From: an uncultured Geobacter sp.
GTDB taxonomy: Bacteria > Desulfobacterota > Desulfuromonadia > Geobacterales > Pseudopelobacteraceae
Direction of reading: 5' to 3'
Length of the DNA stretch: 64,000 bases
Assembly: GCA_964622705.1 (NCBI GenBank)
Contig: CAZUSH010000005.1
Span: 11,389-75,388 of the forward strand
Part shown: positions 2 to 28,685 of the stretch, piece after piece
How the letters are laid out: the number at the start of each line of letters is the position of its first letter
Position numbering within the stretch: position 1 is the first letter of the stretch
Position numbers and translations under genes: made by a program
Notes under the pieces: generated by a model
What the model saw: only the letters and a program-made list of their open reading frames with translations
What the model was told of the DNA's origin: nothing
Database searches by the model: none

Positions 2-331
2 GACGATCTCTGGCGTACTCCCTATCCCGGGGCGTTGTTCAATCAGTTTACGGTTGCCGACTACGTGGTCGGCAACATTGAGTACCGCAGGGAACTGCTG
101 TTCTTTCTCTATCTGCACCTGCGGGGCACCCTGGCCTGGATCAACCGGGACTATCAGCGCTCTGAGCGCTTCCGTTTTGAGCAGGACCGTGGAGAGGCCT
201 TTTCGCTGGGGCTTACCAGCGGCATGCCCTGGGACAGTAGCCTCTATCTGGAGTTTTCACGGGATTTCGGTATTCTGCGTAACGGCGCCTCGGGCAGCGG
301 TTTGATGCTGCTCTGGTCAAAGACGTTTTGA
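2..331 (+). CDS. C-terminal fragment of a probable outer-membrane beta-barrel protein (5' end outside window)
   Basis: Frame open from position 2 (DDLWRTPYPGALFNQF...) to TGA at 331; amphipathic beta-strand pattern with terminal Phe (...LMLLWSKTF). Confidence 0.55.
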   Translation, partial: DDLWRTPYPGALFNQFTVADYVVGNIEYRRELLFFLYLHLRGTLAWINRDYQRSERFRFEQDRGEAFSLGLTSGMPWDSSLYLEFSRDFGILRNGASGSGLMLLWSKTF

Positions 332-6174: not shown

Positions 6175-6669
6175 TTACTCCAGAGCGGTGACCTGCTCGT
6201 TGGAAGTGAGGCTGGTCAACAGTTCGCTGACCGTGCGGCTGCTGCCCGGCGGGCACAGCTCGCCGGCAATGTCTGCCAGAGGGGCCAGTACAAAGCGGCG
6301 TTGCAGCATGCGGGGGTGCGGCAGGGTCAGGGTTGCCGACTGTAGTTCCAGCGTGCCGTAGAGTAGCAGGTCGAGGTCCATCCGCCTCGATTGTGGTTCT
6401 GGTGCAGGGGTGCGGCCAAAACAGTCCTGTTCGATCCGTTGCAGGTGGCTGAACAGTTCCGTTGCCGGCAGGGTAGTGGCAAGCCTGGTCACCCCGTTGT
6501 AAAACGCCGGGGTTCCGCTAGGCATGTTGACCGGCGATGTTTCATAAAAGCGCGATAAGCCGGTTACCCGTGATCCGGGCAGCTTGCCCAGTTCGGCAAC
6601 GGCCCGCAGCAGATTCAGTTCCCGGTCTCCGAGATTTGTGCCTAAAGCGATGTAAGCATCGGTTTCCAC
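6175..6669 (-). CDS. folK: 2-amino-4-hydroxy-6-hydroxymethyldihydropteridine diphosphokinase
   Basis: YIALGTNLGDR, SRFYETSP, RRMDLDLLLYG, LPHPRMLQRRFVL. Confidence 0.95.
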   Translation of the reverse strand: METDAYIALGTNLGDRELNLLRAVAELGKLPGSRVTGLSRFYETSPVNMPSGTPAFYNGVTRLATTLPATELFSHLQRIEQDCFGRTPAPEPQSRRMDLDLLLYGTLELQSATLTLPHPRMLQRRFVLAPLADIAGELCPPGSSRTVSELLTSLTSNEQVTALE

Positions 6670-6675
6670 GGCGCA

Positions 6676-6704
6676 ATTAAATCACACTTGCGCTGGGGCG
6701 TCAA
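6676..6704 (-). promoter_or_regulatory. Putative sigma70 promoter of folK (leaderless transcript)
   Basis: Minus strand TTGACG-17 nt-TTTAAT, ending 6 nt before the GTG start; no SD. Confidence 0.55.
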
Positions 6705-6714
6705 TAAACAGGAC

Positions 6715-6754
6715 AAAAAAAGCCCCCGTCACCAGGAGGGGCGGCAACGAGGGC
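6715..6754 (-). terminator. Rho-independent terminator
   Basis: Minus strand GCCCTCGTTGCC-gcccctcct-GGTGACGGGGGC followed by TTTTTTT. Confidence 0.8.
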
Positions 6755-6790
6755 GATGAAACCCCAGTGGGGTCTCGCAATCTTTTGCGT
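6715..6790 (-). ncRNA. Candidate ~76-nt small RNA with three hairpins and C-rich loop
   Basis: Bounded by TTGCCG-17-TATAGT promoter and an intrinsic terminator; no credible ORF. Confidence 0.55.
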
Positions 6791-6796
6791 AACTAT

Positions 6797-6825
6797 ACTA
6801 TAGCGCCTTAGTGTAAAATCGGCAA
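6797..6825 (-). promoter_or_regulatory. Putative sigma70 promoter for the sRNA candidate
   Basis: -35 TTGCCG (6825-6820), 17-nt spacer, -10 TATAGT (6802-6797). Confidence 0.65.
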
Positions 6826-28597: not shown

Positions 28598-28685
28598 TGG
28601 CGGAGAGGCAGGGATTTGAACCCTGGATACCTTGCGGTATACACGATTTCCAGTCGTGCTCCTTCGGCCACTCGGACACCTCTCC
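28598..28685 (-). tRNA. tRNA-Ser(GGA)
   Basis: GGAGAGGTGTCCGAGTGGCCGAAGGAGCACGACTGGAAATCGTGT...GGTTCAAATCC...TCTCCGCCA; long variable arm, encoded CCA. Confidence 0.97.

What the first reader, a model, noticed from the sequence alone, without database searches (positions are those of the whole stretch)
6715..6825. Candidate stand-alone ~76-nt sRNA with an anti-Shine-Dalgarno loop
Seen on the minus strand: a TTGCCG-17-TATAGT promoter, hairpin CGCAA-aaga-TTGCG, hairpin ACCCCA-c-TGGGGT, and a terminator stem whose loop is GCCCCUCCU (complementary to AGGAGGGG) followed by U7. folK has its own promoter downstream, so this is not needed as a folK leader. Established: C-rich loop sRNAs (e.g. S. aureus RNAIII, alphaproteobacterial 'cuckoo' RNAs) pair with RBSs. 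Inference: a trans-acting translational repressor of unknown family.
Basis: partly seen in the sequence, partly recalled or inferred. Interest (0 to 1): 0.62.

Follow-up and report, generated by a model that had tools for sequence, protein, structure and literature searches.

The report
Known atoC RNA, likely stand-alone sRNA
The candidate is real, but it is a copy of the already catalogued, functionally uncharacterised "atoC RNA" of Geobacter-like bacteria; comparison of about 50 genomes shows it is a self-contained ~76-base small RNA gene rather than a control element of the neighbouring folK gene.

Summary
The family is not unknown: Rfam's atoC RNA (RF01733) matches 6716-6804 end to end at 59.1 bits (threshold 50), and a same-genus orthologue sits in the Rfam seed. 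The RNA occurs in 49 of 61 relatives, almost always once per genome. Both hairpins covary (96.8 % paired, 9 compensatory pairs). UUGCGAG and the loop CCCUCCU are invariant and unpaired. A sigma-70 promoter is conserved in 31 of 31 loci. Rfam types it "Cis-reg", but the evidence favours an independent gene. Downstream genes differ between families (folK, a sigma-54 activator, a hydroxylase) and 5 of 31 are convergent. folK and the activator have their own conserved promoters. Congeners without the RNA keep the folK promoter. No anti-terminator fold exists (penalty 11-20 kcal/mol). Pairing of the loop with ribosome-binding sites is plausible (Hfq is present) but unproven: both target candidates I tested, a ferredoxin and glgC, failed conservation checks. 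Verdict: already known family, with a modest re-interpretation from cis to trans.

The parts
6820..6825 (-). -35 hexamer TTGCCG of the RNA's own sigma-70 promoter
   Evidence: Promoter scan. TTG of the -35 is conserved in 30 of 31 orthologous loci, with a spacer of 17 nt (25 loci) or 16 nt (6 loci).
6797..6802 (-). -10 hexamer TATAGT
   Evidence: TAnnnT is conserved in 30-31 of 31 loci. This box forms the 5' unpaired part of the Rfam model.
6715..6790 (-). Predicted ~76-nt primary transcript (atoC RNA), from +1 (A at 6790, inferred as the 7th nt after the -10) to the end of the U-tract
   Evidence: Rfam RF01733 matches 6716-6804 at 59.1 bits, model positions 1-93. Predicted length across 31 loci is 73-84 nt, median 78. 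The TSS is inferred, not measured.
6774..6780 (-). Conserved single-stranded UUGCGAG; its GAG forms the base of hairpin 1
   Evidence: UGCG is invariant and the flanking positions are at least 90 % conserved in alignment A1. It is preceded by an A/G-rich 5' tail in all loci.
6758..6776 (-). Hairpin 1 (GAGACCCC-ACU-GGGGUUUC)
   Evidence: 7 pairs, 5 of them with compensatory changes, 96.7 % of cells paired. The loops in relatives are mostly GNRA or UUCG tetraloops, which suggests a structural role.
6722..6754 (-). Intrinsic terminator hairpin (13 bp) that displays the invariant CCCUCCU (6740-6734) in its loop
   Evidence: Terminator scan. 11 pairs counted, 4 with compensatory changes, 96.8 % paired. 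CCCUCCU is invariant and unpaired in the MFE of all 31 copies.
6715..6721 (-). U7 tract of the terminator; possible Hfq-binding 3' tail
   Evidence: The T-run is invariant in A1. Hfq is encoded in the genome. Hfq binding is inferred.
6667..6704 (-). Not part of the RNA: folK's own promoter, TTGACG (6704-6699), 14 nt, TGa, TTTAAT (6681-6676), 6 nt, then the GTG start (6669-6667)
   Evidence: TTGACG-14-TGn-TTTAAT-6..9-GTGGAAA is conserved in 17 genomes of the family, 8 of which lack the RNA. There is no consensus RNA structure. Its distance from the RNA terminator ranges from ~13 to ~95 nt.

Best explanation
The element is this genome's single copy of the atoC RNA (Rfam RF01733). It is best read as an independent gene for a ~76-nt small RNA. 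A conserved sigma-70 promoter starts transcription near 6790, and a strong intrinsic terminator stops it at 6715. The RNA has a purine-rich 5' tail ending in the conserved UUGCGAG, a structural hairpin, and a terminator hairpin whose loop always displays CCCUCCU, the same core as the anti-Shine-Dalgarno end of 16S rRNA. The most likely mechanism is inferred, not shown. With help from Hfq bound to the U-tail and A-rich 5' region, the exposed loop pairs with AGGAGGG-type ribosome-binding sites of mRNAs encoded elsewhere and lowers their translation. My confidence by step: member of RF01733 ~0.98; independent trans-acting RNA rather than a leader of the downstream gene ~0.8; anti-SD base pairing as the mode of action ~0.4.
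For: Family: full-length RF01733 match at 59.1 bits against a gathering score of 50. The same-genus orthologue L020 is identical to seed member NZ_AAVG01000035.1. Real RNA: 96.8 % of cells paired against 48 % or less when partners are slid, with 9 compensatory pairs. Independent gene: (a) the promoter is conserved at exactly the sigma-70 contact positions in 31 of 31 loci while the spacer is free to vary. (b) There is one copy per genome in 49 of 61 relatives, across all 20 genera sampled. (c) Downstream genes differ between families: folK, the Fe-hydrogenase-like sigma-54 activator upstream of hgtR, and a fatty-acid hydroxylase. In 5 of 31 loci the downstream gene is convergent: cysS, a DUF2400 gene or an OmpR-type regulator (PMC2817479). 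(d) folK and the activator gene each have their own conserved promoter downstream of the terminator, at variable distance. (e) Congeners without the RNA keep the folK promoter, and in G005, G008 and G010 the nth-like gene directly abuts it. (f) Disabling the terminator costs 11.3-19.6 kcal/mol in every copy, and no alternative fold is conserved. Mechanism: CCCUCCU is invariant although it lies in a loop, and it is unpaired in all 31 MFE folds. Hfq is present. About 70 plausible start sites in this genome carry the perfect 7-mer complement.
Against: No target is verified. The two best candidates, a 63-aa ferredoxin with bipartite complementarity and glgC with 11 contiguous nt, lose the complementarity in orthologues, including genomes with an identical loop. 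AGGAGGG is not enriched among SD sequences (18 % G after AGGAGG). The RNA is undetectable in 11 of 27 congeners, several of them at least 97 % complete, so it is dispensable. One congener (G003) has the RNA without a recognisable promoter. Most copies still have a same-strand gene downstream, as Weinberg et al. noted. No conserved operator hints at what controls the RNA.
Confidence: 0.6

Rival explanations
1. Protein- or ribosome-factor-binding RNA. The invariant CCCUCCU loop, possibly together with UUGCGAG, is recognised by a protein, for example a factor that normally contacts the 16S rRNA 3' tail or a pyrimidine-binding RNA-binding protein. The RNA would then act as a decoy or sponge rather than by pairing with mRNAs.
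For: The loop sequence is invariant across an entire order. The simple comparative tests gave no conserved mRNA partner with extended complementarity. The base pairs GAG/CUC of hairpin 1 are sequence-invariant beyond what pairing requires. Hairpin 1 is capped by GNRA or UUCG tetraloops, like a scaffold.
Against: No candidate protein is known or encoded next to the RNA, and the neighbours vary. There are no repeated binding motifs of the kind typical of sponges such as CsrB. A 7-nt seed complementary to the SD is a sufficient and common sRNA mechanism (established for RsaE/RoxS, AbcR and MmgR-type RNAs; from my own knowledge).
Confidence: 0.15
2. Cis-acting leader or attenuator, which is Rfam's current type 'Cis-reg'. 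The promoter would drive the downstream gene (folK here), and the terminator would be conditionally read through in response to a ligand or protein.
For: Weinberg et al. 2010 rated it 'cis-reg: y, switch: ?' from 8 representatives lying in potential 5' UTRs of FolK, response-regulator or oxidoreductase genes. In 26 of 31 loci a same-strand gene follows within about 40-130 nt.
Against: The downstream genes are functionally unrelated, and 5 of 31 are convergent. folK and the activator gene have their own conserved promoters between the terminator and the start codon, at variable spacing. folK's TGn-TTTAAT promoter places +1 at or within 3 nt of the GTG, so a read-through transcript would present an internal start with no SD. 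Congeners that lack the RNA keep the same folK promoter. No competing anti-terminator fold exists (penalty at least 11 kcal/mol) and none is conserved. There is no complex aptamer-like core, only two simple hairpins.
Confidence: 0.07
3. Merely the terminator or insulator of the upstream nth-like operon, with a fortuitous promoter-like sequence and no function as an RNA.
For: In the window's family the RNA follows the nth-like gene on the same strand, 63 nt after its stop. In G003 no promoter is recognisable, so there the hairpins can only be a 3' UTR.
Against: The promoter is conserved in 31 of 31 other loci, including loci where the upstream gene is divergent. Invariant loop and 5' sequences and a covarying first hairpin are not needed for termination. 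The unit moves between genomic contexts as a whole.
Confidence: 0.03

Closest known systems
atoC RNA motif (Rfam RF01733; Weinberg et al. 2010, Genome Biol 11:R31, PMC2864571)
   Same: It is a member: full-length match above the gathering score, the same two hairpins, the same UUGCGAG and CCCUCCU blocks, the same terminator, the same taxon, and the same folK-upstream location. A seed sequence comes from the same genus and locus.
   Different: Nothing differs structurally. What differs is the reading. Rfam and the 2010 paper type it as a probable cis-regulator from 8 sequences. The ~50 genomes examined here indicate an autonomous sRNA gene. The first ~15 positions of the Rfam model are the -10 promoter box, i.e. 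DNA signal rather than RNA.
MmgR / alpha-r8 sRNA of Sinorhizobium (Rfam RF00519 'suhB')
   Same: Similar architecture: a small hairpin, an exposed C/U-rich anti-SD-like motif and a strong terminator. This family gave the only other Rfam match at this locus. From my own knowledge, MmgR is an Hfq-associated trans-acting sRNA.
   Different: The score is 19.4 bits against a gathering score of 41 (E = 0.13), so it is not a member. In MmgR the CUCCC motif lies between hairpins rather than in the terminator loop, and the phylum is different.
C-rich or anti-SD seed sRNAs: RsaE/RoxS (Firmicutes), AbcR1/2 and CcsR 'cuckoo' RNAs (Alphaproteobacteria), S. aureus RNAIII
   Same: These are the proposed working analogy: unpaired C-rich loops pair with the G-rich ribosome-binding sites of several mRNAs and repress translation (established for those RNAs; from my own knowledge).
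   Different: No sequence or model similarity: no such family matched at E <= 1. Here there is a single C-rich loop, placed inside the terminator, with one copy per genome. No target has been demonstrated.

Membership tests
atoC RNA (Rfam RF01733) | Covariance-model score at or above the curated gathering score (50 bits) over the whole model | tested here: met
   59.1 bits, model positions 1-93 of 93, E = 3.6e-8 for the 64-kb window.
atoC RNA (Rfam RF01733) | Two hairpins, the second a Rho-independent terminator followed by a U-run, both supported by covariation | tested here: met
   Across 31 sequences, 96.8 % of cells are paired and 9 pairs have compensatory changes.
atoC RNA (Rfam RF01733) | Conserved sequence blocks UUGCGAG and CCCUCCU (terminator loop) | tested here: met
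   Both are present at 6780-6774 and 6740-6734, and both are invariant or nearly so in A1.
atoC RNA (Rfam RF01733) | Restricted to Geobacter-like 'delta-proteobacteria'; located upstream of folK, a sigma-54 regulator or an oxidoreductase-domain gene | tested here: met
   Found in 49 of 61 genomes of the order. In a sample of 401 genomes from the phylum, only order members matched, plus 2 weak matches elsewhere in the class. folK lies downstream here.
Cis-regulatory leader / riboswitch-type attenuator | Consistently precedes functionally related genes on the same strand | tested here: not met
   At least 6 unrelated downstream contexts; 5 of 31 downstream genes are convergent.
Cis-regulatory leader / riboswitch-type attenuator | The regulated gene has no promoter of its own between the element and the start codon | tested here: not met
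   A conserved extended -10 promoter precedes folK, and a TGTGCCA-N4-TTGCACA...TATnnT promoter region precedes the activator gene. The folK promoter persists where the RNA is absent.
Cis-regulatory leader / riboswitch-type attenuator | A conserved alternative (anti-terminator) fold of comparable stability | tested here: not met
   Blocking the terminator's 3' arm costs 11.3-19.6 kcal/mol (median 16.3), and the fallback folds differ between species.
Hfq-type trans-acting base-pairing sRNA | Own promoter and intrinsic terminator with a U-tail; short non-coding transcript | tested here: met
   Shown by sequence and conservation. No start codon with an SD lies inside.
Hfq-type trans-acting base-pairing sRNA | Conserved, unpaired seed complementary to target mRNAs, with conserved targets | tested here: inconclusive
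   The seed is conserved and unpaired. About 70 start sites carry AGGAGGG. The ferredoxin and glgC candidates are not conserved.
Hfq-type trans-acting base-pairing sRNA | Hfq present and physically bound | not testable with these tools
   An hfq gene is present (81.7 bits). Showing binding needs co-IP.
MmgR / suhB (RF00519) | Covariance-model score at or above the gathering score (41 bits) | tested here: not met
   19.4 bits, E = 0.13 in a 501-nt search.

The most novel reading that the evidence does not exclude
The atoC RNA is not a gene-specific leader at all. It is an order-wide, single-copy mimic of the 16S rRNA anti-Shine-Dalgarno sequence. Expressed from a strong, apparently unregulated promoter, it would compete with ribosomes for mRNAs carrying extended AGGAGGG sites, or titrate a factor that reads the 16S 3' tail. 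That would give Geobacter-like bacteria a global, trans-acting dial on translation initiation, and Rfam's 'Cis-reg' label would be wrong.
Probability: 0.3. Interest if true: 0.55.

Novelty: already known. Interest (0 to 1): 0.33.

Why it matters
atoC RNA has sat in Rfam since 2010 as an orphan "cis-regulatory" motif defined from eight sequences. The comparative evidence here re-types it as a probable trans-acting sRNA. That evidence is a conserved private promoter, shifting and sometimes convergent neighbours, private promoters for the downstream genes, retention of those promoters where the RNA is lost, and no anti-terminator. The re-typing changes which experiments make sense: deletion or over-expression and Hfq/RIL-seq in Geobacter sulfurreducens, rather than ligand screening. 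It would also be one of the first conserved riboregulators defined for the electroactive Geobacterales. For this window specifically, the result is mostly tidying-up: the candidate is a known family, and folK is not regulated by it.

Tried and rejected
2. Literature: I found no paper characterising atoC RNA. Qiu et al. 2010 (G. sulfurreducens TSS/sRNA map) is not held. The G. soli sRNA list could not be mapped to a locus.
3. Naive genome-wide duplex scan with the loop plus upper stem: dominated by G-rich noise and off-frame ORFs, so uninformative.
4. Bipartite target idea (5'-AGGAGG...CUCGCAA-3', pairing with both conserved single-stranded blocks): one well-placed hit at a 63-aa ferredoxin (C27:39502-39690, minus strand), but CUCGCAA is absent from all 26 orthologues examined, so it is chance.
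5. Fe-sparing, Fur-controlled sRNA idea prompted by that ferredoxin: there is no conserved operator in or upstream of the promoter, only AT-rich sequence.
6. glgC as a target (11 contiguous nt in this genome): not conserved in 18 orthologues, including two genomes with an identical loop.
7. Enrichment of AGGAGGG among SD sequences: none; 70 of 391 (18 %) have G after AGGAGG.
8. Divergent copy hidden upstream of folK, or elsewhere, in the 12 'negative' relatives: none. The 25-bit hit in G011 is not a homologue.
9. Sibling anti-SD sRNAs in this genome: the C126 hit is a gene-end terminator. The C17 candidate folds well but is unconserved and matches no Rfam family.
10. Inverted repeats around the folK -10 box and start codon as a conserved leader hairpin: RNAalifold finds no consensus pair.
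11. Pairing between hairpin 1 and the loop (pseudoknot or anti-terminator): the arm sequences covary freely, and their G-rich and C-rich sides swap between genera, so no conserved alternative pairing exists.

Full report
**1. Observation**

On the minus strand of 6715-6825 the sequence reads: TTGCCG (6825-6820), 17 nt, TATAGT (6802-6797), then ACGCAAAAGAUUGCGAG, a hairpin GAGACCCC-ACU-GGGGUUUC, AUC, and a 13-bp GC-rich hairpin (6754-6722) that exposes CCCCUCC, followed by U7 (6721-6715). The fold is much more stable than shuffles (-37.5 kcal/mol, z = -4.75). No ORF of 40 aa or more overlaps the interval.

**2. Identity**

A scan of the whole window against Rfam gives a full-length match to RF01733, "atoC RNA", at 6716-6804 (minus strand): 59.1 bits against a gathering score of 50, E = 3.6e-8. 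It is the only copy in the 3.67-Mb genome. The family was described by Weinberg et al. 2010 (PMC2864571) from 8 representatives in delta-proteobacteria. They rated it "RNA: y, cis-reg: y, switch: ?" and said only that representatives lie in potential 5' UTRs of genes for oxidoreductase domains, response regulators or FolK. One seed sequence, NZ_AAVG01000035.1, is letter-for-letter the copy I retrieved from a same-genus genome at the same nth-folK locus (L020). So the family is not "unknown".

**3. Distribution and structure**

- RF01733 is found in 49 of 61 relatives, in all 20 genera and 5 families sampled from the order, nearly always once per genome.
- In 401 genomes sampled across the phylum, it appears only in members of the order, plus two sub-threshold matches in sister families. 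Those two share the 3' module, including the CCCUCCU loop.
- In an alignment of 31 loci, both helices are supported. 96.8 % of cells are paired, against 48 % or less with slid partners, and 9 pairs show compensatory changes.
- The invariant positions are UGCG in the single-stranded UUGCGAG, CCCUCCU in the terminator loop, and the U-tract.
- Hairpin 1 varies freely in sequence and is usually capped by a GNRA or UUCG tetraloop.

**4. Cis or trans?**

Six lines of evidence favour an autonomous RNA gene.

- (a) A sigma-70 promoter is conserved in all 31 loci at exactly the contact positions: -35 TTG in 30 of 31, -10 TAnnnT in 30-31 of 31, spacer 17 or 16 nt. The spacer sequence is free to vary. 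This predicts a 73-84-nt RNA.
- (b) The neighbours change between families:
  - nth-like | RNA | folK
  - SDR | RNA | folK
  - nth-like | RNA | convergent DUF2400 gene
  - ATPase or SIR2 | RNA | convergent cysS, more than 500 nt away
  - various | RNA | Fe-hydrogenase-like sigma-54 activator, the gene upstream of hgtR described by Ueki and Lovley (PMC2817479)
  - RNA | fatty-acid hydroxylase
  - M16 peptidase | RNA | convergent OmpR-type regulator

  In 5 of the 31 loci the downstream gene is convergent, so the RNA cannot be a 5' UTR there.
- (c) folK has its own promoter, TTGACG-14-TGn-TTTAAT (an extended -10), 6-9 nt before the GTG. It is conserved in 17 genomes, and its distance from the RNA terminator varies from about 13 to 95 nt. 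No RNA structure is conserved there. The activator gene likewise has a conserved TGTGCCA-N4-TTGCACA...TATnnT promoter region.
- (d) Eleven of 27 congeners lack the RNA even under sensitive filters, yet they keep the folK promoter. In three of them the nth-like gene directly abuts it.
- (e) Disabling the terminator costs 11.3-19.6 kcal/mol in every copy, and no alternative fold is conserved.
- (f) One copy per genome next to unrelated genes is not how riboswitches or attenuators are distributed.

One exception: in G003 the RNA has no recognisable promoter and may be a 3'-UTR product or in decay.

**5. Mechanism**

- CCCUCCU is conserved as sequence although it sits in a loop, and it is unpaired in the MFE of all 31 copies.
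- It contains the CCUCC core of the 16S anti-SD and is perfectly complementary to AGGAGGG.
- The genome encodes Hfq.
- The RNA has the usual Hfq-binding layout: a GC-rich terminator with a U-tail and an A/G-rich 5' tail.

I therefore favour an Hfq-type sRNA that pairs with ribosome-binding sites. This is inference. About 70 plausible start sites in this genome carry AGGAGGG, with no enrichment over other SD extensions. The two most striking candidates were a small ferredoxin with bipartite complementarity and glgC with 11 contiguous nt. Neither keeps the complementarity in orthologues, including genomes whose RNA loop is identical. No operator is conserved at the promoter. A protein-decoy function therefore remains a serious rival.

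**6. What could not be done**

The key experimental paper on G. sulfurreducens TSSs and sRNAs is not held. I found no publication that characterises atoC RNA functionally.

**7. Verdict**

The feature is real and conserved, but it is an already catalogued family. "Translational repressor via an anti-SD loop" is plausible but unproven. Earlier notes from this scan on other genomes (e1-2334852, e1-2232428) reached the same family and reading; I used them only as leads. Note e1-5167308 (leaderless folK) is strengthened by the promoter conservation shown here.

Noticed in passing
window 6667-6704 (-): The folK promoter is an extended -10 type (TTGACG-14-TGn-TTTAAT) ending 6 nt before the GTG start, with no SD. 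This geometry is conserved in 17 genomes of the family (6-9 nt to the GTG), which supports a leaderless or near-leaderless folK mRNA.
   Followed up: yes
G000:C17:42124-42289 (+) = L078:625-790 (outside the window): An intergenic ~150-nt candidate sRNA with a possible TTGACC-18-CATACT promoter and three hairpins, two of which display CCUCCCCUGGU in their loops (one is the terminator). MFE -72.4 kcal/mol, z = -4.76. It has no Rfam match and is not conserved in 40 relatives.
   Followed up: partly
L032:1456-1589 (genome G003, same genus): This atoC RNA copy scores 51.5 bits but has no recognisable -35/-10. The nth-like stop codon lies 45 nt upstream of the match. It may be a 3'-UTR-derived form or a decaying copy.
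   Followed up: partly
L033 and L034 (sister families f7 and f8 of the same class): Sub-threshold RF01733 matches (35.8 and 34.5 bits) share the 3' module GCCCUGGA-GAC-(N)CCCUCCU-GGUC-UCCAGGGUGUUUUU behind a longer, different 5' part. Divergent atoC-like RNAs therefore exist outside the order.
   Followed up: partly
L002-L012 and L016-L018, about 20-70 nt downstream of the RNA terminator (families f3 and f5): The Fe-hydrogenase-like sigma-54 activator gene (upstream of hgtR) is preceded by a conserved near-palindrome TGTGCCA-N4-TTGCACA overlapping a -35, then a TATnnT box. Several loci have a second GTGCCAC-N4-TGGCAC repeat further upstream. This is probably an operator for an unknown regulator.
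   Followed up: no
L021, L025 and L031, about 30-100 nt downstream of the RNA (family f2): A second conserved element, CACCGTCTTTTGACGG...AGGTGCGGGA..TGGC..GCC..TTTTT, lies between the atoC RNA and the convergent cysS. It may be another small RNA or the cysS terminator region. All three genomes are from one genus.
   Followed up: no
G048:C1:1810318-1810405 (+) (G. sulfurreducens-sized genome): A second RF01733 match (60.4 bits) corresponds to seed member NC_002939.4/1810322-1810409. In the published seed alignment it lacks UUGCGAG and the CCCUCCU loop and looks like an ordinary gene-end terminator, so the Rfam seed probably contains a false member.
   Followed up: no
window 28601-28685 (-): An ordinary tRNA gene (RF00005, 55.4 bits); the only other Rfam match in the window.
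   Followed up: no
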